NCBI GenBank assembly: GCA_038874655.1
Contig: JAVZBY010000007.1
Coordinates: 14,609-24,812 of the forward strand
From: Candidatus Woesearchaeota archaeon
Lineage (GTDB): Archaea > Nanobdellota > Nanobdellia > Woesearchaeales > GW2011-AR15
Length of the DNA: 10,204 nucleotides
Direction: 5' to 3'
Below the pieces are notes generated by a model. It was not told the origin of the DNA, did no database searches, and was given only the letters and a program-made list of their open reading frames with translations. A program made the position numbers and the translations under genes. Positions 1-10,204 of the stretch are shown here, in pieces. How positions within the stretch are numbered: the stretch's first letter is position 1; each line of letters opens with the position of its first letter.

Positions 1-383
1 AGACAAATAATGAAATTAAAGCTTTAACTGAAACATCAAGTTTAATGGAACCTTTTAATAAAGAAGATATTGAAATAATAAAAGAATTAAATTTTAAACC
101 TACTTTATCTAATACATTCACATTAAAAAAATTCATTTATGCAAGAGTTAAAGAAACAAATTCAACATATACAGATGATTTTTTTACGATGGCAGTAATT
201 TCTTACAATTCACCTAAAAATTATTATACTAATTTAATTAAAAGACTAAATCTAAAATACTTAATAACCCTTAAAACTGATCTACAATCTCTAAAAAATT
301 TAGAAAGAATAAAATCAAAATATGATGGAGATATGAATCAAATATATAGTAATAATAAATTTTATTTACATACTTTTAATTAG
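1..383 (+). CDS. 3' part of a gene truncated by the window edge; possibly the extracytoplasmic C-terminal domain of a GT-C/STT3-like membrane glycosyltransferase
   Basis: The frame of the 45..383 ORF is open back to base 3 (TNNEIKALTETSSLMEPF...), so Met45 is probably internal. The C-terminal pattern LIKRLNLKYLI...NQIYSNNKFYLH resembles the 'lk.y.i.YI ... iY.N..v.iy' ending of GT-C-associated domains. It lies directly upstream of a GT4 gene. The product is weak inference. Confidence 0.45.
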   Translation, partial: TNNEIKALTETSSLMEPFNKEDIEIIKELNFKPTLSNTFTLKKFIYARVKETNSTYTDDFFTMAVISYNSPKNYYTNLIKRLNLKYLITLKTDLQSLKNLERIKSKYDGDMNQIYSNNKFYLHTFN

Positions 384-391
384 GATTTAAA

Positions 392-1444
392 ATGAAAATT
401 CTACTTTTATCATCAACTGTTCCAGAATATACAAAAAGTTTATTCTTAGCTTTAAAAAAAATAAATAAAGATACTTATCTAATATATTTAAATCAAGGAG
501 AAAGAGGTATTTTTGAGGATATAGAAAATTTAATAAAAATAAATAGACCTAAAATTAGATCTATAAAAAACATATTTTTACTTTTAAATTTAAAAAAAAT
601 AATTAACAATATTAAACCAGATATAATACACATTCAAATTAGCTATCCTTGGTTTTTATTATTATTACCTTTTATTAAATGTAAAAAAATATTTACTAAA
701 CATGATGTTTATAAACATCCTGGTGATGTAGATAAATCTTTTTATTTCAATGAATTTTCTATAATGCACCAATCAAATGGAATAATAGTCCATAGTTCTA
801 AATTAAAAGAAGAACTAAGAAAAAAAAATATAAAACAACCTATATATGTAATTCCACATGGCAATTTCTCTATATACAAACCAAAAAAAATATACAAAGA
901 AAAAAAGAATCATATTTTATTCTTTGGCAGGATTTATGAATATAAAGGATTAAAATATTTAATTGAAGCAGAACCATTGATTAAAGACAAGATTAAAGAT
1001 TTTAAAATAGTTATTGCAGGAAAAGGTGAAGATTTTTCAAAATATGAAAAGATGATAAAAAATAAGGATAGTTTTATTATACATAATAGATATATTCCTG
1101 ATGAAGAAATGATGAAATTATTTCAAGAATCTAGTGTGGTTGTTTTGCCTTATATAGAAGCAAGTCAAAGTGGGGTTATTCCCTTAGCATATCAATTTAA
1201 AAAACCTGTTATTGCAACAGATGTTGGTGCTTTATCAGATGTAGTGATTAACAAAAAAACAGGTTTATTAATTGAGCCAAAAAATGTAAAATTATTAGCA
1301 GATTCAATAATTTATATACTAACTCACCCAAAAGAAAGAAAAAAAATGGGAAAGGAGGGGTATAAATTTGCTCAAAAAGAACTTTCTTGGGATAAAATTG
1401 CAAAAAAAACAATAGAGGCATATAAAGATGTTCTCAACAATTAA
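392..1444 (+). CDS. GT-B fold glycosyltransferase family 4 (Glycos_transf_1)
   Basis: Motifs MKILLL, KPDIIHIQ, VIPHG, ILFFGRIYEYKGLKYLIEA, LPYIEASQSGV, KPVIATDVGAL, TGLLIEP and SWDKIA are typical of GT4. The SQSG variant replaces the usual E-x7-E. Confidence 0.93.
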   Translation: MKILLLSSTVPEYTKSLFLALKKINKDTYLIYLNQGERGIFEDIENLIKINRPKIRSIKNIFLLLNLKKIINNIKPDIIHIQISYPWFLLLLPFIKCKKIFTKHDVYKHPGDVDKSFYFNEFSIMHQSNGIIVHSSKLKEELRKKNIKQPIYVIPHGNFSIYKPKKIYKEKKNHILFFGRIYEYKGLKYLIEAEPLIKDKIKDFKIVIAGKGEDFSKYEKMIKNKDSFIIHNRYIPDEEMMKLFQESSVVVLPYIEASQSGVIPLAYQFKKPVIATDVGALSDVVINKKTGLLIEPKNVKLLADSIIYILTHPKERKKMGKEGYKFAQKELSWDKIAKKTIEAYKDVLNN

Positions 1445-2603
1445 AAAAACTACTTATTTAACAATATCCAATATTCTTATTAGACTATCCTCTGTTCTTT
1501 TTTTCATCATCTTAGCCCGTTCTCTCTCAGTCTCCAACTATGGCTCTTTCCGTTATCTTTTAACTTTATCAATGATGATTGGTTTATTTTTCACAGGAAT
1601 TCCAACTGCTTTAACTAAATACTTAAGTGAAAAGAAAGATCACAGCTATACATCAACATCTTTATTTTTAATGTCTTTTATATTCATAATTTTACTAATC
1701 CCAAGTTTATTTTATGATTATAGATTATCTTTATTCCTTTTTGCATTATTAGTTGATGCATTTTATTTAGGCTTCATAAGAGGCTTATTAAATTACATAA
1801 AATTAGCTGGTTTTAAGTTATTAGAAAATATTATTCAATTAATTATTCTAATAGTAAGTTATATTTTATTAAAAGAAATTAATTTTGATTTTGCAGTTAT
1901 TTTTTACAGCTTTTCAGGAATTTTATCATTAATTATCTTTGAAATAATAAAACCAGAAATAAAACTTACAAAAATAGATAAACAAAAAATAAAACAAATA
2001 ATAACTTATACAATTCCAGTTACATTAGGCTCAATTGGATGGACACTTATGTTTGGTATTAATTCTATTTTTATAAAAATGTTTCATGATACAGAGCAAT
2101 TAGGATATTTTAGTGTTGGAACAACAATAGTTCAAGTATTTACATTTTTGCCTGAGGCAATAACCACAATCCTAATGCCTAAAACATCTTCTTTAAAAGA
2201 CAAAAGCAAATTAAAAAAACCATTGAAATTAGCAATACTAGGAACAATAATAACATCAACAATAGGATTAATACTTTTATTAATCCTAAACAAATTTTTA
2301 ATTACATTACTATTCGGAGAAAAATATATAAAAACTAGTTTAATAATATTACCCTTATCATTAGGCCAAATCTTTATTTCATTACATCAAATCTATGCTT
2401 CTATTTTCCAAGGCCTTAACAAACCCCAAATCCCCTCAACAACAATCTCAATAGCAGCATTCTTAAACATCATAGGCTCTTACTTCTTAACAAAAAATTA
2501 TGGAATATTAGGTTCATCAATCTCTAATGCAATCACTTCTTTTATTGCATTAATCATAATCTTAATAATTTTCAAAAAAGATTTTCAAAAATTTTTTATC
2601 TAA
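1428..2603 (+). CDS. Wzx/MOP-superfamily polysaccharide flippase
   Basis: About 12 hydrophobic segments. Motifs LARSLSVSNYG, GIPTALTKYLSE, LGYFSVG, FQGLNKP, NIIGSYFLTKNYGILGS are typical of Wzx flippases. It overlaps the GT4 stop by 17 nt, consistent with an operon. Confidence 0.88.
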   Translation: MFSTIKKTTYLTISNILIRLSSVLFFIILARSLSVSNYGSFRYLLTLSMMIGLFFTGIPTALTKYLSEKKDHSYTSTSLFLMSFIFIILLIPSLFYDYRLSLFLFALLVDAFYLGFIRGLLNYIKLAGFKLLENIIQLIILIVSYILLKEINFDFAVIFYSFSGILSLIIFEIIKPEIKLTKIDKQKIKQIITYTIPVTLGSIGWTLMFGINSIFIKMFHDTEQLGYFSVGTTIVQVFTFLPEAITTILMPKTSSLKDKSKLKKPLKLAILGTIITSTIGLILLLILNKFLITLLFGEKYIKTSLIILPLSLGQIFISLHQIYASIFQGLNKPQIPSTTISIAAFLNIIGSYFLTKNYGILGSSISNAITSFIALIIILIIFKKDFQKFFI

Positions 2604-2610
2604 AAACCTT

Positions 2611-2626
2611 GAAAACTTTTATAAAT
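2611..2626 (+). promoter_or_regulatory. Putative archaeal BRE/TATA promoter of the archaeosortase gene
   Basis: GAAAACTTTTATAAAT: an A-rich BRE-like run, then TTTATAAA (2618-2625) ending 22 nt before ATG 2648. Confidence 0.6.
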
Positions 2627-2647
2627 AAAAATATTTAACATTAAACA

Positions 2648-3625
2648 ATGCAAAAAAATTTTAAGATTTTTCTAAAAACTTCTATTTTTTTTATTATTTT
2701 TGTTCTATCAATTTCTTTATTTATTCAAGTTTATTTCTCAAAAACAGAATTTTATAAAAATTATTTAACAATTCCGAAAGATTTTTCCATAGAGCCGCCA
2801 AATTTTAGAACAAATTTTATAAGCGGTTTATTCATAGGATTTATTGCTTTTTTGATACTTAGCTATGATAAATTAAAAAACATAAAACAACCAAAAACAA
2901 GTTTTAAATTATTTATTTTACCTGTTGTTTTTATAATCTCACAATATCTATTAAAATACACAATTTCACAAAACTTAGACTTTTTTTTGCAAAGCCCTAA
3001 ATTATGGGGGTTTTTAAGATTTTTTATTAACCTGCTTTTTGTAAGTTCTACGGCATTAGCTTTTTATGGGATTGATTTTATTAAATATTTTTTTAAGAAA
3101 TTTAAAAAAGAGGTTTTTATTTTTTTTACATTAAGTATTTTATTCTTTTTTATTATATTGTTATTCCAAAATTTATGGCTTTTTTTATCTTCACTAATAA
3201 GCAAAATACTCTATGTTTTTTTCAAATTATTTTTTAAAGATATTATTTATCAAGAATTTGTTTCTGTTTCCAGTATGTCCGAAGGTGGGGGTCCTTTGTT
3301 AGGAATAAAAAATTTTTCTGCAGTCATAGGAAAACCCTGTTCTGGAATAGATTCTTTGTTATATTTTAGTGCAATTTTTACTCTGATTATTTTTGTTGAT
3401 AGAAAGAGATTGAAAAAAATTCCAACAACAATAGCTTTTATCTTAGGGTTAATAGGAATGTTTATAACTAATATGATTAGAATCTTACTTTTATTTATAA
3501 TAGGTGCTTATCTCTCGCCAAATTTTGCTTTGGGAATGTTTCATAATAATATTGGCTGGATTTTATTTATAGTTTATTTTTATGTCTTTTTCAAAATAGC
3601 AAGGAAGTTTATATATAATAATTAA
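2648..3625 (+). CDS. Exosortase/archaeosortase family membrane cysteine transpeptidase
   Basis: Multi-pass membrane protein with the family triad in the expected contexts: Cys231 (VIGKPCSGIDS), Arg278 (NMIRILLL), His299 (FHNNIGW). It sits in a glycosylation locus, as is established for exosortases. Confidence 0.9.
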   Translation: MQKNFKIFLKTSIFFIIFVLSISLFIQVYFSKTEFYKNYLTIPKDFSIEPPNFRTNFISGLFIGFIAFLILSYDKLKNIKQPKTSFKLFILPVVFIISQYLLKYTISQNLDFFLQSPKLWGFLRFFINLLFVSSTALAFYGIDFIKYFFKKFKKEVFIFFTLSILFFFIILLFQNLWLFLSSLISKILYVFFKLFFKDIIYQEFVSVSSMSEGGGPLLGIKNFSAVIGKPCSGIDSLLYFSAIFTLIIFVDRKRLKKIPTTIAFILGLIGMFITNMIRILLLFIIGAYLSPNFALGMFHNNIGWILFIVYFYVFFKIARKFIYNN

Positions 3626-4059: not shown

Positions 4060-4179
4060 TTATTTTTTTCTTAAAAGTACAAATAATCCTGCAACACCTA
4101 AATTTTTCCATTGATTATTTTTCCATTTATATTTTGCTACTGTAATTAACGCATTATTATATATTTTTAAGTAGTAACT
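4060..4179 (-). pseudogene. Start-less 39-codon frame ending in a sortase-substrate-like C-terminal tail (possible gene remnant)
   Basis: The minus frame reads SYYLKIYNNALITVAKYKWKNNQWKNLGVAGLFVLLRKK* with no in-frame ATG/GTG/TTG. It ends in a hydrophobic Gly/Ala-rich stretch plus basic RKK, followed by T-tracts. The first codons overlap the transketolase 3' end. Confidence 0.35.
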
Positions 4180-5119
4180 TTATTTCTTTGATTATTCTTT
4201 TTTCATTTAATTCATATTTTTCTAATAAGTCATTAGCATTTCCAGATTCTCCAAATTTATCTTCCATACCTATAATCTTCAATCTTTTAGGATTGTATTG
4301 ACTTAGTATTTCAGAAACAGCGCTTCCTAATCCACCATAAATTTGATGTTCTTCTGCAGTAATTATTGCTTTTGTTTCTTTTGCTGCTTTAATAATTTCT
4401 TCTGAATCAATTGGTTTTATTGTATGCATATTTACAACCCTGAGAGAAATATTTTCTTTTTCAAGAATTTCAGATGCTAACAAAGCATAATAAACCATTA
4501 TTCCTGTTGCTATAATAGTTATATCTTTTCCATCTCTCATTACTATTGATTTTCCTATTTTAAACTCATTATTTTTGTAATAATCAGATGTTAATACTGG
4601 AATTTTTTCTCTTCCTAATCTTAAATAAAAAGGACCATATTCTTTTGCAATTGTATAAGTTGCTTTTTCAGCTTCAATTGCATCACAAGGAACAATAATT
4701 TTTAAGTTTGGCAATGCTCTTAACATTGCTATATCTTCCATCATTTGATGTGTGGCTCCATCTGGGCCTACAGTTAAACCAGCATGTGTTGCTATTAACT
4801 TTACATTCAAGTTAGAATAACAAACACTTTGTCTTATTTGATCGTAGCATCTTCCTGGTAAAAATGAAGCAAAAGCAGTTGCAAAAGGAATTTTTTTTGT
4901 CAATGCTAATCCAGCAGAAACTCCAATCATGTTTGCTTCTGCTATACCTGTTTCAATATATCTATCAGGATACTTTTTTTTAAAGTCAAATGCTTTTGTA
5001 CTATCGCCAACACTTGCAGATAAAACATAAATATTCTTTCCAATAAAAGGATCATTACCTAAATTAACAATTGCTTTTCCAAATCCATCTCTTGTTGCAA
5101 TCTTTTCTTTTATTTCCAT
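4157..5119 (-). CDS. Transketolase, C-terminal subunit (pyrimidine-binding and C-terminal domains)
   Basis: Motifs ATRDGFG, GIAEANMIGVSAGLA, YDQIRQSV, VGPDGATHQ, PFYLRLGR, TIKPID, AEEHQIYGGLGSAVSE, DKFGESG. Confidence 0.95.
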   Translation of the reverse strand: MEIKEKIATRDGFGKAIVNLGNDPFIGKNIYVLSASVGDSTKAFDFKKKYPDRYIETGIAEANMIGVSAGLALTKKIPFATAFASFLPGRCYDQIRQSVCYSNLNVKLIATHAGLTVGPDGATHQMMEDIAMLRALPNLKIIVPCDAIEAEKATYTIAKEYGPFYLRLGREKIPVLTSDYYKNNEFKIGKSIVMRDGKDITIIATGIMVYYALLASEILEKENISLRVVNMHTIKPIDSEEIIKAAKETKAIITAEEHQIYGGLGSAVSEILSQYNPKRLKIIGMEDKFGESGNANDLLEKYELNEKRIIKEIKLLLKNI

Positions 5120-5124
5120 ATTAA

Positions 5125-5130
5125 CCCCTC
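5125..5130 (-). promoter_or_regulatory. Shine-Dalgarno-like site for the downstream transketolase subunit
   Basis: The minus strand reads GAGGGG-TTAAT-ATG(5119). This is the only G-rich patch in the 13-nt gap, consistent with an internal cistron of an operon. Confidence 0.6.
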
Positions 5131-5132
5131 AA

Positions 5133-6011
5133 TTATAATTTTTCAATTTCTTCTAATGCCTTTTTCATTTCATCATCATTTGGAGCTTTTCCATGCCATT
5201 CATAATTATTTTCAATAAATGAAACACCTTTTCCCATTGTTGTTTTGAATATTATAACATTAGGTTTTTCATTTTTTTCAGAATTTTTGCTTGCTTCTAT
5301 AAATGCTTTTTCAATTTCATTTAAATTATGACCATCAGATTCTATAACATTAAAACCAAAAGCTTCAAATTTTTTATTTAATGGCTCTAATGAAAGCATT
5401 TCCTCTGTTTTTCCAGATTGTTGAACAAAATTTCTGTCAATGAAAACAATTAAGTTATTTAATTTGTAGTGAGAAGCAAACATAAATGATTCCCAAACAG
5501 AACCTTCTTGGAGTTCACCATCACCCATAGAAACATAGATTTTACTTTTCTTTTTATCTCTTTTATAGCTTAATGCTAAACCAACAGCAACTGAAATTCC
5601 TTGTCCTAAACTGCCAGTTGAAACTTCTGCAAATTCAAAGTCATGATTAACAGGATGTCCTTGTAATCTTGAATTTATTTGTCTTAATGTTAATAATTCT
5701 TCTTTTTTTATAAAACCTTTTTCTGCTAAAGTAGCATACCAAACAGGGCATATATGTCCGTTAGATAAAATAAATCTATCTCTATCTTCTATTTTTAGAT
5801 TATGTATGTTTTTTAATATCTTGAAATACAATACAGAAAAAACATCTGTCATTCCAAGAGAGCCACCAGTATGGCCGCTTTTTGCTTTGTTAAGCATGAT
5901 TATTATATTTTTTCTTATGCTTTTTGTTATCTCCTTTAAATTACTATTATCAAATTGCTTTTTTTTCTCACTAATTTTAGTATTAGAATTCTTTTTATTA
6001 TTTTTTTTCAT
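5133..6011 (-). CDS. Transketolase, N-terminal (TPP-binding) subunit
   Basis: Motifs SGHTGGSLG, DRDRFILSNGH, LQGHP, STGSLGQG, TPP-binding GDGELQEG...DRN, DGHN, TTMGKG, WHGKAP. Confidence 0.95.
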   Translation of the reverse strand: MKKNNKKNSNTKISEKKKQFDNSNLKEITKSIRKNIIIMLNKAKSGHTGGSLGMTDVFSVLYFKILKNIHNLKIEDRDRFILSNGHICPVWYATLAEKGFIKKEELLTLRQINSRLQGHPVNHDFEFAEVSTGSLGQGISVAVGLALSYKRDKKKSKIYVSMGDGELQEGSVWESFMFASHYKLNNLIVFIDRNFVQQSGKTEEMLSLEPLNKKFEAFGFNVIESDGHNLNEIEKAFIEASKNSEKNEKPNVIIFKTTMGKGVSFIENNYEWHGKAPNDDEMKKALEEIEKL

Positions 6012-6053: not shown

Positions 6054-6428
6054 ATGAAAGAATTTGATGAGTTTTTTTCACTAGTGCAAAAAAGCATTAA
6101 ACTTGATCCTTGGGCAAAGAACAAAAAAACAATTGGCTATTGTAAAGAAATAATTAATGAATCAAATGAATTAATTGAAGCAATACAAAAAAATGACCTT
6201 GCAAACATAAAAGAAGAATTAGGAGATATTTTATATGATTGGCTTCATGCTATTGCTTATTCAAAGGAAGAATATAATATCGAGATTAATGAAATTATTA
6301 ATTTAGCTAAAAACAAATTAAAACATAGAAAACCTTATTTATTAGAAAATAAAGAAGTAAGCTTAGAGGAATCTTTAAGAATATGGAAAGAACAAAAGCA
6401 GAAAGAAAAAAATCAAAAGAAACTTTAA
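6054..6428 (+). CDS. mazG: Single-domain MazG-like nucleotide pyrophosphohydrolase
   Basis: DPW, EIINESNELIEAI, IKEELGDILY, KLKHRKPY and W.EQKQKEK match the MazG N-terminal domain with its acidic E..E...E..D metal-binding residues. Confidence 0.88.
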   Translation: MKEFDEFFSLVQKSIKLDPWAKNKKTIGYCKEIINESNELIEAIQKNDLANIKEELGDILYDWLHAIAYSKEEYNIEINEIINLAKNKLKHRKPYLLENKEVSLEESLRIWKEQKQKEKNQKKL

Positions 6429-7054
6429 ACAAAGCACATCAACAATTTAATCAAAAGAGTATTTTTGATAGACTATGGTTTAAAAATTTGATATATGATA
6501 AAAATAAAATAAGAAAATTTCTTATCACATTATTAGTAATATTTACATTATTATTTTTATTAGGGATTCATAAAAAAATTATATACTTATTTGTTTTTTT
6601 TATATTTTTTTTTATAAATTTTTTATTTGCATTCTTTAAAAGATTTTTTTTTAGGTTTGGGATTGCAAAATATTTATACGGAATAGAAATTGTTATGTTT
6701 TCAACTGTAATGATTAGTTATTTTTATGGCTCTACAATTGGTTCTATCAGCGGTGCTTTTTTTATGATAATCAATTATTTGTCTGAGAGAAGATTTTCAA
6801 AATTTTTTATTATTACTCTGCCTCTTTACTATGTAATCGGATTAACAGCATACTATTTTAAAAGTTATGATATAAGATTAGTAGGTATTATTTACTCAAT
6901 TTTTTATAACATCTTATCTAATTTTCTTTCAAGAATTTTAGAGCCTAATATTAAGTCATTGTTTGTTTTTAACTTAATTAATTTTTTGTTTAATTTTTTT
7001 ATTTTTATGAGTTTATCAAAAAATGTATATGACTTATTGAATTTGATATTATAA
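6383..7054 (+). CDS. Integral membrane protein, ECF S-component-like
   Basis: About 6-7 TM segments. GIEIVMFSTVMISYFYGSTIGSISG resembles the 'G..G...G' helix-2/3 signature of ECF S-components. The start is uncertain because of a 46-nt overlap with MazG. Confidence 0.5.
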   Translation: MERTKAERKKSKETLNKAHQQFNQKSIFDRLWFKNLIYDKNKIRKFLITLLVIFTLLFLLGIHKKIIYLFVFFIFFFINFLFAFFKRFFFRFGIAKYLYGIEIVMFSTVMISYFYGSTIGSISGAFFMIINYLSERRFSKFFIITLPLYYVIGLTAYYFKSYDIRLVGIIYSIFYNILSNFLSRILEPNIKSLFVFNLINFLFNFFIFMSLSKNVYDLLNLIL

Positions 7055-7092: not shown

Positions 7093-8412
7093 TTATTGAT
7101 TCGGCTCACTAAATACATATTTAATTATTCTTCTTAACATTTCTTTGCTCAATAGATAAACTATTATTATATATATCAATTTTCCAATCATAATTATCAA
7201 AATAATGTTAATGATTGTTGTTGATAAATACTCTTTAAGAAAAAGCATTATCAAAGTGCTAATGCTAACTGCAAAAAAAACATAAAAATAATCCTTTGTT
7301 ATTATGTCTAAATCTAAATTGTTTTTCATAATTAAGATGTTTGTCAATTTTATTAAAAGGCTATAAATGAAAAAGGAAATTATGAAAATTTTTAAACCAA
7401 AAATAGAAGTTAATATTACAAATATGAATAGGATTAATTTCAAAAGGTTTAGGTTTTTAATGGCTTTTGTTTTTTGTTTAGCATATAATATCATGTTTGT
7501 AAAGTCAATATTTAGAAAACCTATTGCTAATATTATATAAGCTTCTAATGTGTATTTTTCATATGATAGGAATTTCAAGAACTCATTTAGAAATGTTAGC
7601 AATATCGCATAATAAGGCATACTAAAAAAATAGATGTATTCATGCAATCTTATGTAATTGAGTTTTAATAATTCTTCTTTATCTTCTGTTGTGCTAAAAT
7701 TATTATAATAACTTATTAAAAATGAGAAAACATTTTTTACAAAATAGGAAATTTCTATCAATATTAGATTAAACGCAAAAAAATCAGCGCCGAATATTAT
7801 GAAAGTAAATATGTAATATAAATACTTTATAGAAGGTAATTTTAGAGTTAAATTTATTTTTCCTTTTTTTGGTTTTATTGAAATTGGTAATGTTTTGTAT
7901 AATTTATATACATAGATAATATAATACATAATGTAAGCATAAAATATTGCTTCTGGTATTTTTTTATAAGCTAAGAATAATCCTAAAATAAATCCAAGTT
8001 GAGAGATTAATCTTGAATAGAATAATCTTTTATAATCTTTTCTTGATTTTAAAAATGATTCAGGCACAATTGAAAAACTTGATAAGAATAAAAGTATAGC
8101 AGTAAATTTGAGTATTTCGCTGTATTCTTCTATAAATATTGATATAATTATTAAAAAGAGGCATAAGATTGTTGATATTATGATTATTGAAAAATTAGCA
8201 TTTGAATAAAATTTTTTTACTTTCTCTAGATTATTTTCATTAAAATTTATTAAGAATAATGACCTATAAAAAAATATCAAGGTTAACCAAAAAAACATGA
8301 TTTTAAAATCATTTGGGATTAAGTAATAAATTATGATTAAAAAGAGTAATTGTAATGATTGAAGTATAATGTTGTATTTTATTGCTTTTAATGTTTCTTT
8401 TATAAACTCCAT
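7093..8412 (-). CDS. Divergent WzxC-like polysaccharide flippase / MOP-family membrane protein
   Basis: About 12-13 TM segments. LSSFSIVPESFLKSRKDYKRLF and the C-terminal IIMIGKLIYIIIVYLL resemble WzxC-type flippases, but many usual motifs are eroded. Confidence 0.55.
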   Translation of the reverse strand: MEFIKETLKAIKYNIILQSLQLLFLIIIYYLIPNDFKIMFFWLTLIFFYRSLFLINFNENNLEKVKKFYSNANFSIIIISTILCLFLIIISIFIEEYSEILKFTAILLFLSSFSIVPESFLKSRKDYKRLFYSRLISQLGFILGLFLAYKKIPEAIFYAYIMYYIIYVYKLYKTLPISIKPKKGKINLTLKLPSIKYLYYIFTFIIFGADFFAFNLILIEISYFVKNVFSFLISYYNNFSTTEDKEELLKLNYIRLHEYIYFFSMPYYAILLTFLNEFLKFLSYEKYTLEAYIILAIGFLNIDFTNMILYAKQKTKAIKNLNLLKLILFIFVILTSIFGLKIFIISFFIYSLLIKLTNILIMKNNLDLDIITKDYFYVFFAVSISTLIMLFLKEYLSTTIINIILIIMIGKLIYIIIVYLLSKEMLRRIIKYVFSEPNQ

Positions 8413-8495: not shown

Positions 8496-8504
8496 AAAGA
8501 AAAA
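8496..8504 (-). terminator. Oligo-T terminator-like tract after the tRNA pair
   Basis: TTTTTCTTT immediately follows the tRNA-Glu discriminator base on the minus strand. Oligo-T tracts are the established archaeal termination signal, but such tracts are common in this genome. Confidence 0.45.
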
Positions 8505-8518
8505 TGCCTCGCACGGGA

Positions 8519-8550
8519 ATTTCATATGCTTTTTCTGTAAAAAAGCTATT
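8519..8550 (-). other. 32-nt non-canonical tRNA intron at position 59/60 (T-loop)
   Basis: TTCA(54-57) pairs with intronic TGAA. The 3' bulge AT|T sits next to G53-C61 and the 5' cut falls after A58-A59. The intron contains the hairpin GCTTTTT-TACAG-AAAAAGC. This is a relaxed BHB (BHL-type) motif. Confidence 0.85.
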
Positions 8551-8571
8551 TTTGAACCCGTGTCTCAGCCT

Positions 8572-8586
8572 TACCCTACAAATGTA
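8572..8586 (-). other. 15-nt canonical tRNA intron at position 37/38
   Basis: Intron TACATTTGTAGGGTA. CTCT(32-35) pairs with AGGG (one G-U), the bulges are CG|T and TA|A, and there is a short outer helix AC/GT. Confidence 0.88.
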
Positions 8587-8629
8587 CGAGAGGGCTGAAT
8601 GATTGGCCGGACTACACTAGCGAGGCATC

Positions 8630-8725
8630 TGGGCCCAGCGAGATTCGAACTCGCGACCCTCCGCTTAAGAGGCGGATGCTCTAATTGCATAACACTTTTG
8701 TGTTTCCATGCTGAGCTATGAGCCC
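8630..8725 (-). tRNA. tRNA-Lys (anticodon CTT) with a D-loop intron (19/20)
   Basis: Minus strand: acceptor GGGCTCA/TGGGCCC+A, D-stem GCTC/GAGC, anticodon arm TCCGC-CT-CTT-AA-GCGGA, T-arm GCGAG-TTCGAAT-CTCGC. Removing 8685-8705 (21 nt) gives a 75-nt tRNA with D-loop AGCATGGTTA. No CCA is encoded. Confidence 0.94.
8685..8705 (-). other. 21-nt non-canonical tRNA intron directly after the conserved D-loop GG (19/20)
   Basis: BHB with central helix GCAT/ATGC, bulges GG|A and AA|T, and a perfect intronic hairpin AACAC-AAAA-GTGTT. Confidence 0.88.
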
Positions 8726-8750
8726 ATCTGAAATTAAAAATTTTCAGAAA

Positions 8751-8765
8751 TTTAAAAAGTTTATT
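8751..8765 (-). promoter_or_regulatory. Putative TATA promoter for the tRNA-Lys/tRNA-Glu transcript
   Basis: The minus strand reads AATAAACTTTTTAAA, ending 25 nt before tRNA-Lys G1. It shares the AAACTTTT(T/A) core of the promoters at 2611 and 6047. Confidence 0.55.
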
Positions 8766-8815: not shown

Positions 8816-9109
8816 TTATTTACCCCAACTCCACTTAGGTTTTTCGCCTTTTTTAAAGCAGATAATTATTAGAAGGATAGAGGATAATGTTAAAATAAAA
8901 TAAAAGATAAAACAATCAATAAAGGTTGTATTATTTTTTAATAAAATTCTTTGATTAAATATTAAGGCATTGAGAAAATTTATTAAAATAAATAAAAAGG
9001 TTGTTAGCCATCCTTGCCATGTTATTGGATACCAACCAAAACCATATAATTTTCTTTTAAACCAAATATTATTTTTTTTAGATTTTTTAATTTTTATTTT
9101 AGTTTTCAT
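8816..9109 (-). CDS. Small two-TM hypothetical membrane protein with WFKRKLYGxGWxPxTWQGW and KGEKPKWxWG motifs
   Basis: 97 aa with two hydrophobic segments bracketed by Trp/Gly-rich motifs, which are unlikely by chance in such AT-rich DNA. Confidence 0.8.
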   Translation of the reverse strand: MKTKIKIKKSKKNNIWFKRKLYGFGWYPITWQGWLTTFLFILINFLNALIFNQRILLKNNTTFIDCFIFYFILTLSSILLIIICFKKGEKPKWSWGK

Positions 9110-9199: not shown

Positions 9200-10003
9200 A
9201 TGAGATTTTCAGAATTTTTGTATATCTTTTCAAGAGCATTTAATCCTGGAGAATATAAAAATTTAGTTTTAAGAAAAAAAAGAGATACAATAAACTATTT
9301 TTTTTTACTATTGTTTTTTTGTATTTTTCTTGGATTAATTTTGTCAATACCTAAATTAATTAATGTGCCTAATAAGATTCAAAGTTTTTTTTCAAATTTT
9401 GAAATTATTAATGTTTCAATGGATGTAAAGGCAAATGAAAAAATTGTTGTTATGGATTTCCCAAAAATTGTAATGGATTTTACTGGAAATTATAGTTATA
9501 ATGATACAAAGATTACCGATGAATTTATTTTAATTACAAATTCAGATATTTACACAAAAAAATTTAGACCAAGTTTTTCTGGATTTTTTCAAATTGAAAA
9601 TAAATCCTTTGATCAATATAAAAATTTAAAAGATGATTTTTCAAAAATAAAAAACGGAACTTATTGGTTAATATTTTTATTAATGCTTCCATCAGCAATT
9701 TTGTTTATTTATTTGTTTAATTTAATAAAATATGTTTTGATAATATTTTTATTTACTATATTAGGATTTATTTTTATAAAAATAAAAAGAAAAAAACCCT
9801 CACTTATTCATGTTTGGAAGACAGCAGTTTTTTCTTCAACTATAATTATATTTATGGATATAGTTATTTTGCCATTGTTTAAGTTCTCTATATATTTAAG
9901 TTTGTTGTCATTTTTGCTTTATGCTTTATTATTTGTTTTATCTTTAATGATTTTATGTGAAAAAGAAATAACATTAAAGCATAAGGAATTAGATGAAGAT
10001 TAA
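9200..10003 (+). CDS. DUF1189-like membrane protein
   Basis: N-terminal FNPGEYKNLVLRKKRDTINYFFLL, one TM, a soluble insert, then about 3-4 C-terminal TMs, which is the DUF1189-type layout. ATG 9200 is preferred over TTG 9194 because TATTAAAT (9168-9175) lies 24 nt upstream. Confidence 0.6.
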   Translation: MRFSEFLYIFSRAFNPGEYKNLVLRKKRDTINYFFLLLFFCIFLGLILSIPKLINVPNKIQSFFSNFEIINVSMDVKANEKIVVMDFPKIVMDFTGNYSYNDTKITDEFILITNSDIYTKKFRPSFSGFFQIENKSFDQYKNLKDDFSKIKNGTYWLIFLLMLPSAILFIYLFNLIKYVLIIFLFTILGFIFIKIKRKKPSLIHVWKTAVFSSTIIIFMDIVILPLFKFSIYLSLLSFLLYALLFVLSLMILCEKEITLKHKELDED

Positions 10004-10004
10004 T

Positions 10005-10172
10005 ATGAAAAAGAAGAAAAATAATAATACAGAAAAAAATAAGGATAAAATAATTGAAACCTTATATAAAGAATTAGAAAGAAAAGATAAAATAATTGAA
10101 AAACTAAAAGAGGAAAATTATGTCTTAATGAGGACAGCTTTGAAGAGAGAAGAAGAAAGAGTGAAGAAATAA
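10005..10172 (+). CDS. Small 55-aa charged coiled-coil protein (not in the ORF track)
   Basis: The ATG lies 1 nt after the upstream stop. Translation: MKKKKNNNTEKNKDKIIETLYKELERKDKIIEKLKEENYVLMRTALKREEERVKK*. It has heptad-like hydrophobic spacing and purine-rich coding-like composition. Confidence 0.65.
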   Translation: MKKKKNNNTEKNKDKIIETLYKELERKDKIIEKLKEENYVLMRTALKREEERVKK

Positions 10173-10204
10173 TAAAAAAGGAAAAAAATAATAAATTAAA
10201 AAGT

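What the first reader, a model, noticed from the sequence alone, without database searches (positions are those of the whole stretch)
8505..8626. tRNA-Glu(CTC) interrupted by two introns, one in the T-loop at 59/60
Seen: two insertions (15 and 32 nt) whose removal restores a 75-nt cloverleaf, each with a 4-bp central helix and cut sites after the second bulge base. Established: multi-intron tRNAs and non-canonical intron positions are best known from Thermoproteales and some DPANN lineages, and need broad-specificity (alpha-beta)2 or epsilon2 splicing endonucleases. Inference: this organism has such an enzyme, and standard tRNA scans may miss the gene or call it a pseudogene.
Basis: partly seen in the sequence, partly recalled or inferred. 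Interest (0 to 1): 0.75.

Follow-up and report, generated by a model that had tools for sequence, protein, structure and literature searches.

The report
Two-intron tRNA-Glu gene, Woesearchaeota-like archaeon
A glutamate tRNA gene of a small DPANN-type archaeon is interrupted by two short introns, one in the T-loop, an arrangement that is real but is common in its relatives and already described for archaea.

Summary
On the minus strand, 8626..8505 encodes tRNA-Glu(CTC) with a 15-nt insert at 37/38 (8586..8572) and a 32-nt insert at 59/60 (8550..8519). Removing both gives a 75-nt cloverleaf that ARAGORN calls tRNA-Glu(ctc). A motif-free MAFFT alignment with 11 intronless archaeal tRNA-Glu genes opens exactly these two gaps. 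Both inserts sit in bulge-helix-bulge motifs with 4-bp central helices; the T-loop motif has a one-base irregularity.

It is not rare. 64 of them are tRNA-Glu, 13 carry a Woesearchaeota label and 11 have a second insert. Position 59/60 is listed in a 2014 review.

The window's transketolase is 81-83% identical to Woesearchaeota proteins.

The claim that the host needs an (alpha-beta)2 or epsilon2 endonuclease is untestable here and too narrow: DPANN alpha4 enzymes with an L3 loop are also linked to disrupted tRNA genes.

The adjacent tRNA-Lys(CTT) carries a 21-nt D-loop intron. Verdict: a new member of a known kind, of low interest.

The parts
8505..8626 (-). tRNA-Glu(CTC) gene, 122 nt unspliced and 75 nt after removal of two introns. 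No CCA is encoded.
   Evidence: ARAGORN on the in-silico spliced product; model R1: 35.1 bits, E 2.5e-9; alignment with intronless homologues.
8587..8626 (-). Exon 1: acceptor 5' strand, D-arm, anticodon stem 5' strand and loop up to G37.
8572..8586 (-). Intron 1, 15 nt, at the canonical position 37/38. Its BHB has central helix C32-U35/AGGG, bulges CG|U and UA|A, and a 2-bp inner helix with a 4-nt loop.
   Evidence: all listed pairs are standard; 398 of 100000 shuffles pass; 16-nt insertion after model position 37.
8551..8571 (-). Exon 2: A38, anticodon stem 3' strand, variable region, T-stem 5' strand, and T-loop U54-A59.
8519..8550 (-). Intron 2, 32 nt, in the T-loop at 59/60. The outer helix is the T-stem, the central helix is U54-A57/UGAA, and the bulges are AA|A and AU|U. 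The inner hairpin carries one unpaired A beside the central helix.
   Evidence: (380 of 100000 shuffles pass).
8505..8518 (-). Exon 3: U60, T-stem 3' strand, acceptor 3' strand, and discriminator A73.
8630..8725 (-). Upstream neighbour: tRNA-Lys(CTT) gene, 96 nt unspliced, separated from tRNA-Glu by 3 nt (8629..8627).
   Evidence: Rfam tRNA 28.9 bits, gathering score 29, partial; ARAGORN tRNA-Lys(ctt), 75 nt after removal of 21 nt; 25.1 bits, with 25 nt in place of 5 D-loop positions.
8685..8705 (-). 21-nt D-loop intron of tRNA-Lys, after G18 G19. Central helix GCAU/AUGC, bulges GG|A and AA|U, inner helix of 5 bp.
   Evidence: centroid fold shows D-stem, central and inner helices; 72 of 100000 shuffles pass.
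8496..8504 (-). T-run (TTTTTCTTT) directly after A73 of tRNA-Glu. Likely an archaeal oligo-T terminator of a Lys-Glu transcript (inference).
   Evidence: Sequence. Not tested, and weak evidence in a 77% A+T window.
8748..8758 (-). TATA-like A/T box centred about 28 nt upstream of G1 of tRNA-Lys. Possible promoter (inference).
   Evidence: Sequence. Not significant on its own in this A+T-rich DNA.

Best explanation
This is a functional, doubly interrupted tRNA-Glu(CTC) gene of a Woesearchaeota-like (DPANN) archaeon.

Proposed pathway:
1. It is probably transcribed together with the tRNA-Lys(CTT) gene 3 nt upstream, from an A/T-rich promoter to the T-run after A73 (inferred).
2. In the precursor, each insert pairs with the neighbouring exon to form a bulge-helix-bulge motif. 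At 37/38, the anticodon stem is continued by C32-U35 pairing with the intron's AGGG. At 59/60, the T-stem is continued by U54-A57 pairing with the intron's UGAA (shown by sequence and folding).
3. The archaeal splicing endonuclease EndA cuts after the second base of each 3-nt bulge. RtcB-type ligase joins the three exons. RNase P and RNase Z trim the ends, and CCA is added, because none is encoded. These steps are inferred from established archaeal tRNA processing.
4. The two motifs lie in different arms and can form at the same time, so no order of splicing is imposed (inferred).

The T-arm itself supplies the outer helix and one strand of the central helix. That explains why the intron only needs UGRR-NN before U60, and why this site is occupied in many archaea.
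For: - Removal of both inserts gives a 75-nt tRNA-Glu(ctc) by ARAGORN; the unspliced form is not recognised.
- A motif-free alignment with 11 intronless tRNA-Glu genes gives gaps of exactly 15 and 32 columns.
- All pairs of the cloverleaf plus both BHB motifs are standard pairs. The constrained fold is -36.3 kcal/mol.
- The unspliced RNA folds better than all 200 shuffles, z = -4.31.
- Shuffled inserts rarely satisfy the BHB rule: 398 and 380 of 100000.
- Exons are 60% G+C against 33% and 22% in the inserts and 23% in the window.
- The spliced sequence matches 70 of 75 positions of the T-loop-spliced tRNA-Glu(TTC) of two Woesearchaeota-labelled genomes, L015 and L061. The intron body has no close relative: best 58% identity against a median of 42% over 861 pairs. 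This is the pattern expected of exons under selection and introns drifting.
- Of 121 D-arm/T-arm hits (119 loci plus the window), 67 carry an insert at this T-loop site, 50 are uninterrupted and 4 are neither. 65 of the 67 are tRNA-Glu.
- 42 of the 67 have UGRR exactly 6 to 3 nt before the intron end. 24 have the helix shifted by one base. 1 has neither.
- The host is archaeal: the transketolase C-terminal subunit is 83% and 81% identical to proteins named Candidatus Woesearchaeota.
- Position 59/60 is a listed archaeal intron position (PMC4090602, passages).
Against: - There is no expression or splicing evidence of any kind. EndA, RtcB and the rest of the genome are not in the window.
- The unconstrained minimum-free-energy fold (-43.0 kcal/mol) is not the cloverleaf/BHB conformer (-36.3 kcal/mol). 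It pairs the D-loop with the variable region instead.
- The T-loop motif is not strict: one unpaired A beside the central helix. Only 16 of the 42 genes in this register fold into the strict 3-nt-bulge geometry under my constrained folding.
- The intron boundaries used in the shuffle test were chosen with the BHB rule in mind, so those fractions are somewhat favourable.
- The 67 genes are related to each other, so the binomial figure is illustrative only.
- Whether another, uninterrupted tRNA-Glu(CTC) exists in this genome is unknown.
Confidence: 0.87

Rival explanations
1. The gene is a decaying pseudogene. The two inserts are junk insertions that are never removed, and another gene supplies tRNA-Glu(CTC).
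For: ARAGORN and Rfam do not call it. No expression data exist. The remainder of the genome is unseen, so a second copy cannot be excluded.
Against: Every stem of the spliced product is intact, and 70 of 75 positions match relatives. Exons hold 60% G+C in a 23% G+C window. Both inserts sit in BHB motifs that shuffles reach in about 0.4% of trials. The same two-insert architecture recurs in 11 other loci.
Confidence: 0.05
2. The 32-nt T-loop insert is an assembly or binning artefact, not part of the real gene.
For: The source appears to be a metagenome-type contig: the window's own protein is listed on 1 contig of 54997 nt. No reads are available to check.
Against: 66 independently assembled loci carry an insert at the same site, 13 of them labelled Woesearchaeota. 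The insert ends in the UGAA-AU motif needed to pair with the T-loop, which a random misjoin would not supply.
Confidence: 0.02
3. The inserts are true introns, and because the T-loop motif and the neighbouring D-loop motif are relaxed, splicing depends on a broad-specificity endonuclease. That could be (alpha-beta)2 or epsilon2, or alpha4 with the DPANN L3 loop.
For: The T-loop motif has one extra unpaired base. The tRNA-Lys D-loop motif has only a weak outer helix. [quoted passage not shown] Its section 16 links L3-loop alpha4 enzymes of DPANN to tRNA disruption.
Against: The 3' cleavage sites are canonical, with a 4-bp helix, a 3-nt bulge and a 5-bp T-stem. The departures are one base. No EndA sequence of this organism was available, so the architecture is a guess. 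The same paper says subunit type contributes least to specificity.
Confidence: 0.45

Closest known systems
Non-canonical BHB introns of archaeal tRNA genes at position 59/60 (listed with 20/21, 22/23, 25/26, 29/30, 30/31, 45/46, 53/54 and 56/57 in Yoshihisa 2014, PMC4090602; passages read)
   Same: Same position, same motif logic (exon-intron pairing forming bulge-helix-bulge), and sometimes accompanied by the canonical 37/38 intron.
   Different: That review names Crenarchaeota and Nanoarchaeota as the rich sources. Here the host is Woesearchaeota-like. I did not see a printed statement that tRNA-Glu in particular carries this intron across phyla (searches found none).
T-loop-interrupted tRNA-Glu genes of Woesearchaeota-labelled genomes fetched here (for example L015, L061, L026, L031, L084, L114)
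   Same: Same isotype, same insert site, and the same UGRR-NN motif before U60. L026, L031, L084 and L114 also have a second insert between the D-arm and T-arm. Exons are 64-70 of 75 identical to the window for L015, L061, L114 and L026.
   Different: Intron bodies are unrelated in sequence to the window's: best 58% identity. The closest two, L015 and L061, are the TTC isoacceptor and lack the 37/38 intron.
Multiple-intron tRNA genes of Thermoproteales (Sugahara et al. 2008 and Fujishima et al. 2010, as summarised in PMC4033280; passages read)
   Same: Two or three BHB introns in one tRNA gene, combining canonical and non-canonical positions.
   Different: Different phylum, and a host with (alpha-beta)2 EndA. 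In Thermoproteales, similar intron sequences recur in different tRNA genes (transposition signature). I did not test this for the three introns in the window.
[quoted passage not shown]
   Same: [quoted passage not shown] D-arm inserts are the ones annotators miss. T-arm inserts form canonical BHB motifs most often.
   Different: Different superphylum. That study's genes average 2.2 inserts, whereas the two genes here carry 2 and 1.
Nucleomorph and red-alga tRNA genes with introns in the D and T arms (Kawach 2005 and Soma 2007, as summarised in PMC4090602)
   Same: Short inserts in the D and T arms of tRNA genes in A+T-rich genomes.
   Different: Those are eukaryotic. Here the D-arm is of the archaeal tRNA-Glu type (invariant in 32 of 32 archaeal genes), and the proteins match Woesearchaeota.

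Membership tests
Archaeal BHB (EndA-spliced) tRNA intron | Removing the insert restores a complete cloverleaf collinear with intronless homologues. | tested here: met
   ARAGORN calls tRNA-Glu(ctc), 75 nt, only after both removals. MAFFT gaps of 15 and 32 columns against 11 intronless genes.
Archaeal BHB (EndA-spliced) tRNA intron | The 37/38 junctions form a 3-nt bulge, a 4-bp helix and a 3-nt bulge. | tested here: met
   C32-U35/AGGG (one G-U pair), bulges of 3 nt, inner helix of 2 bp. All pairs are standard. 398 of 100000 shuffles pass.
Archaeal BHB (EndA-spliced) tRNA intron | The 59/60 junctions form a 3-nt bulge, a 4-bp helix and a 3-nt bulge. | tested here: met
   U54-A57/UGAA, a 3' bulge AUU closed by the 5-bp T-stem, and a 5' bulge AAA. 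There is one unpaired A between the inner and central helix, so it is near-canonical rather than strict. 380 of 100000 shuffles pass.
Archaeal BHB (EndA-spliced) tRNA intron | Cleavage by EndA and ligation by RtcB yield the mature tRNA. | not testable with these tools
   No RNA data. No EndA or RtcB among the 13 window ORFs.
Non-canonical position 59/60 | The insert lies between T-loop nucleotides 59 and 60, so that the mature loop is the conserved UUCAAAU. | tested here: met
   U60 and the T-loop are invariant in 32 of 32 intronless genes. By reading the sequence, shifting the 32-nt deletion by one base either way gives a different loop.
Non-canonical position 59/60 | The same site is occupied in other genomes. 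| tested here: met
   66 further loci. 41 of them are in the same register.
Multiple-intron tRNA genes (Thermoproteales type) | Two or more BHB introns in one gene. | tested here: met
Multiple-intron tRNA genes (Thermoproteales type) | Similar intron sequences shared between different tRNA genes (transposition signature). | not tested
   The three introns of the window were not compared with each other. Across loci, only the T-loop intron bodies were compared.
Split or permuted tRNA gene | Halves are encoded at separate loci or in reversed order. | tested here: not met
   The exons are contiguous and collinear on one strand.
Self-splicing group I/II intron in a tRNA gene | An insert of hundreds of nucleotides with a ribozyme core. 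| tested here: not met
   The inserts are 15 and 32 nt. There is no Rfam family at gathering score in the window.
tRNA pseudogene | Broken stems or lost invariant residues in the exons. | tested here: not met
   All listed stem pairs are standard. 70 of 75 positions match relatives. Expression was not testable.
Host with (alpha-beta)2 or epsilon2 EndA | The genome encodes separate alpha and beta subunits or a three-unit epsilon protein. | not testable with these tools
   EndA is not in the window. The literature allows alpha4 with an L3 loop in DPANN.

The most novel reading that the evidence does not exclude
The 59/60 intron of tRNA-Glu is not a lineage oddity. It is a pan-archaeal, ancient or repeatedly re-gained feature that exploits the T-arm as a ready-made half of a BHB motif: the T-stem is the outer helix and U54-A57 is one strand of the central helix.

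In one truncated scan it appeared in genomes labelled Woesearchaeota, Nanobdellota, Aenigmatarchaeota, Thermoplasmata/Methanomassiliicoccales, Heimdall/Hodarchaea, Nitrososphaerales and 'Methanosarcinales'. Some of these lineages are classically credited with strict endonucleases and few non-canonical introns.

If so, the textbook link between non-canonical position and broad-specificity EndA is wrong for this site. Woesearchaeota would then process D-loop, anticodon-loop and T-loop introns with an alpha4-type enzyme.
Probability: 0.25. Interest if true: 0.4.

Novelty: new member of a known kind. Interest (0 to 1): 0.2.

Why it matters
For annotation, both tRNA genes in this intergenic region are invisible to ARAGORN and to Rfam at its gathering score. 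Genomes of this lineage will therefore look as if they lack tRNA-Glu and tRNA-Lys unless an intron-aware archaeal mode is used. Kaneta et al. 2018 already noted incomplete tRNA sets in DPANN and Asgard genomes.

Biologically it adds one more example to a known class and changes no concept. The wider pattern seen on the way, the same T-loop site occupied in tRNA-Glu across several archaeal phyla, is the part that might repay a proper census.

Tried and rejected
- A deletion scan of the tRNA-Lys gene with ARAGORN was uninformative. ARAGORN accepted very many deletions, and my coordinates were off by one. It was replaced by the single BHB-guided removal.
- The genome pattern was less specific than planned. 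50 of 121 hits are ordinary tRNA genes with a chance TCCCG downstream, mostly from haloarchaea. 3 of those are bacterial tRNAs with a different anticodon and were left out of alignment A1. 4 hits fit neither class (L012, L059, L086, L115).
- Rfam E-value-mode hits to a Tetrahymena snoRNA, an HIV frameshift element and a plastid 5'UTR lie far below their gathering scores. I rejected them as chance.
- Weak R1 hits at 8011-8066 and 4647-4682 (E 1.4 and 9.7) were rejected as chance.
- Small ORFs of 23-40 aa over the region were rejected as coding, given the tRNA evidence.
- A eukaryotic nucleomorph origin was considered and rejected. The D-arm is of the archaeal tRNA-Glu type and the proteins match Woesearchaeota.
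- A box C/D RNA inside the intron was considered and set aside, because 32 nt is too short (my knowledge, not tested).
- Sugahara et al. 2007 (PMC1852824) is not held. Sugahara 2008 and Fujishima 2010 are cited only through reviews.

Full report
**What is in the window**

The window is very A+T-rich: 23% G+C overall, and 19-32% in 500-nt windows. Its genes include a glycosyltransferase, two flippase-like proteins, an exosortase-like protein, a VanZ-like protein, a MazG-like protein and a split transketolase. The transketolase C-terminal subunit is 83% and 81% identical to proteins named Candidatus Woesearchaeota, followed by Nanoarchaeota-named proteins at about 70%. I therefore treat the host as a Woesearchaeota-like DPANN archaeon.

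Between two minus-strand ORFs (7093-8412 and 8816-9109) lies a 403-nt spacer. Apart from two short stretches inside the transketolase gene (4709-4797), it holds the only 60-nt windows with at least 45% G+C, at 8542-8731.

**The observation**

Read on the minus strand, 8626..8505 is a tRNA-Glu(CTC) gene whose cloverleaf is broken by 15 nt after G37 (8586..8572) and by 32 nt between A59 and U60 (8550..8519).

- ARAGORN finds no tRNA in the window.
- Rfam finds nothing at gathering score.
- In E-value mode Rfam finds only a partial tRNA match, 28.9 bits against a gathering score of 29, on the neighbouring gene.
- When both inserts are removed by coordinate slicing, ARAGORN calls a 75-nt tRNA-Glu(ctc) with all four stems. 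With neither or only one insert removed, it finds nothing or miscalls the gene.

**A check that does not use the splicing motif**

MAFFT opened exactly two gaps, of 15 and 32 columns, at 37/38 and between UUCAAA and UCCCG.

I also built a covariance model from 32 uninterrupted tRNA-Glu genes. It finds the gene at 35.1 bits (E 2.5e-9) and bridges the first insert. It cannot span the T-loop insert and ends inside it. It also finds the upstream gene at 25.1 bits, with 25 nt in place of 5 D-loop positions. This shows directly why ordinary scans fail here.

**The motifs**

- At 37/38, the anticodon stem is continued by C32-U35 pairing with AGGG of the intron. The bulges are CG|U and UA|A, with a 2-bp inner helix.
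- At 59/60, the T-stem is continued by U54-A57 pairing with UGAA of the intron. The bulges are AA|A and AU|U, with an inner hairpin.
- All these pairs are standard.
- The T-loop motif has one unpaired A between the inner and central helix, so it is near-canonical rather than strict.
- The cloverleaf-plus-BHB conformer has -36.3 kcal/mol against an unconstrained minimum of -43.0 kcal/mol, which pairs the D-loop elsewhere. This is a point against the reading, though it is common for tRNA precursors in nearest-neighbour models (my knowledge).
- Shuffled inserts meet the same fixed-register rule in 398 and 380 of 100000 trials.
- Exons are 60% G+C and introns 33% and 22%.

**Relatives**

One pattern scan of species-representative genomes looked for the D-loop motif, then GGGTTCAAA, then 20-50 nt, then TCCCG.

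- Of 121 D-arm/T-arm hits including the window, 67 have an insert at this T-loop site followed by the matching T-stem and acceptor strands. 50 are uninterrupted genes with a chance downstream match. 4 fit neither class.
- 65 of the 67 are tRNA-Glu (37 CTC, 28 TTC). 2 are other isotypes.
- 42 of the 67 have UGRR exactly where it must pair with U54-A57. 24, all labelled Nitrososphaera-like or Thermoproteota, have the pairing shifted by one base. 1 has neither.
- Under constrained folding, 16 of the 42 show strict geometry. The rest, including the window, deviate by 1-3 bases or extend the central helix.
- By record title, the 41 loci in the window's register are labelled as follows: 13 Woesearchaeota; 3 other DPANN; 8 'uncultured Methanosarcinales' (labels not verified); 7 Thermoplasmata, Thermoplasmatota or Methanomassiliicoccales; 2 Asgard; 3 Nitrososphaerales or Thaumarchaeota; 4 unclassified archaea; 1 'Aminicenantes bacterium'.
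- 12 genes including the window carry a second insert between the D-arm and T-arm.
- The window's spliced sequence matches 70 of 75 positions of L015 and L061. Its intron body has no close relative: best 58%, median 42% over 861 pairs.

**The neighbour**

Three nucleotides upstream, 8725..8630 is a tRNA-Lys(CTT) gene with a 21-nt insert (8705..8685) after G18 G19 of the D-loop.

- Its centroid fold already shows the D-stem, a GCAU/AUGC central helix and an inner helix.
- After removal of the 21 nt, ARAGORN calls tRNA-Lys(ctt), 75 nt.
- 72 of 100000 shuffles meet the rule.

So three BHB-type introns lie in 221 nt. The T-run after A73 of tRNA-Glu and a TATA-like box about 28 nt before G1 of tRNA-Lys suggest one transcript. 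In DNA this A+T-rich, that is only an inference.

**How it most likely works**

EndA recognises the three motifs and cuts after the second bulge base. An RtcB-type ligase joins the exons. RNase P and RNase Z separate and trim the two tRNAs, and CCA is added. All of this is inferred from established archaeal tRNA processing; nothing here shows expression.

The endonuclease type cannot be read from this window. The abstract of Kaneta et al. [quoted passage not shown] However, its section 16 reports L3-loop alpha4 enzymes in DPANN lineages associated with increased tRNA gene disruption, and says that subunit type matters least.

**Comparison with what is known**

- Yoshihisa 2014 lists 59/60 and 20/21 among the known non-canonical positions and notes combinations with the canonical intron.
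- Fujishima and Kanai 2014 summarise multi-intron genes.
- tRNAscan-SE 2.0 models such introns, but from Crenarchaeota, Euryarchaeota and Thaumarchaeota.
- A 2026 preprint finds T-arm introns common, and D-arm inserts often missed, in Asgard archaea.
- My searches found no paper describing this intron in Woesearchaeota tRNA-Glu specifically.

**Verdict**

The finding is real and precisely described. It is a new member of a known kind and is common in its own lineage. The enzyme inference is unproven and too narrow. Interest is low.

Noticed in passing
window 8630-8725 (minus strand), intron 8685-8705: A second interrupted gene lies 3 nt upstream: tRNA-Lys(CTT) with a 21-nt BHB-type intron in the D-loop after G18 G19. 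ARAGORN and Rfam at gathering score both miss it.
   Followed up: yes
24 loci, e.g. L001, L006, L009, L022, L073 (T-arm of tRNA-Glu): In Nitrososphaera-like loci the intron's pairing partner is shifted by one base (G53-C56 against GRAY, with the intron ending in A). This would place the cut at 58/59 with the same mature loop and a weaker outer helix.
   Followed up: partly
L074, about 190 nt upstream of its tRNA-Glu: A Woesearchaeota-labelled locus has a tRNA with a Lys-like acceptor and D-arm, and about 80 nt of extra sequence in its anticodon region, ending 8 nt before tRNA-Glu. The Lys-Glu tandem may therefore be conserved. I could not resolve its introns.
   Followed up: partly
L028 and L048: The same T-loop site and UGAA motif occur in two non-Glu tRNA genes, with anticodon regions reading GAG (Leu-like) and GTG (His-like). 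The site is therefore not specific to tRNA-Glu.
   Followed up: no
L031 and L067: The T-loop intron bodies are 78% identical between a TTC gene and a CTC gene in two different Woesearchaeota-labelled genomes. This suggests isoacceptor conversion or intron transfer.
   Followed up: no
L050; also L002, L003, L010, L016, L025, L036, L062, L068: An archaeal-type interrupted tRNA-Glu sits in a record labelled Aminicenantes bacterium, which is probably misbinned. Eight records labelled 'uncultured Methanosarcinales' carry DPANN-like interrupted tRNA-Glu genes. These labels were not verified.
   Followed up: no
L012 and L086: Two Thermoplasmata-labelled tRNA-Glu genes have a long insert at the anticodon loop that itself contains a GGGTTCAAA string. 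This is why they matched the pattern without having a T-loop insert.
   Followed up: no
window 4157-6011 (minus strand): Transketolase is encoded as two adjacent genes: an N-terminal subunit (292 aa) and a pyrimidine-binding plus C-terminal subunit (320 aa).
   Followed up: partly
window 392-3625 and 7093-8412: A cell-surface glycan cluster: a GT1-family glycosyltransferase, two polysaccharide-flippase-like proteins and an exosortase-like membrane protein (possibly an archaeosortase). Pfam evidence only.
   Followed up: partly
window 3-383, 6383-7054, 8816-9109, 10000-10203: Four ORFs have no Pfam match. ORF 6383-7054 overlaps the MazG-like ORF by 46 nt.
   Followed up: no
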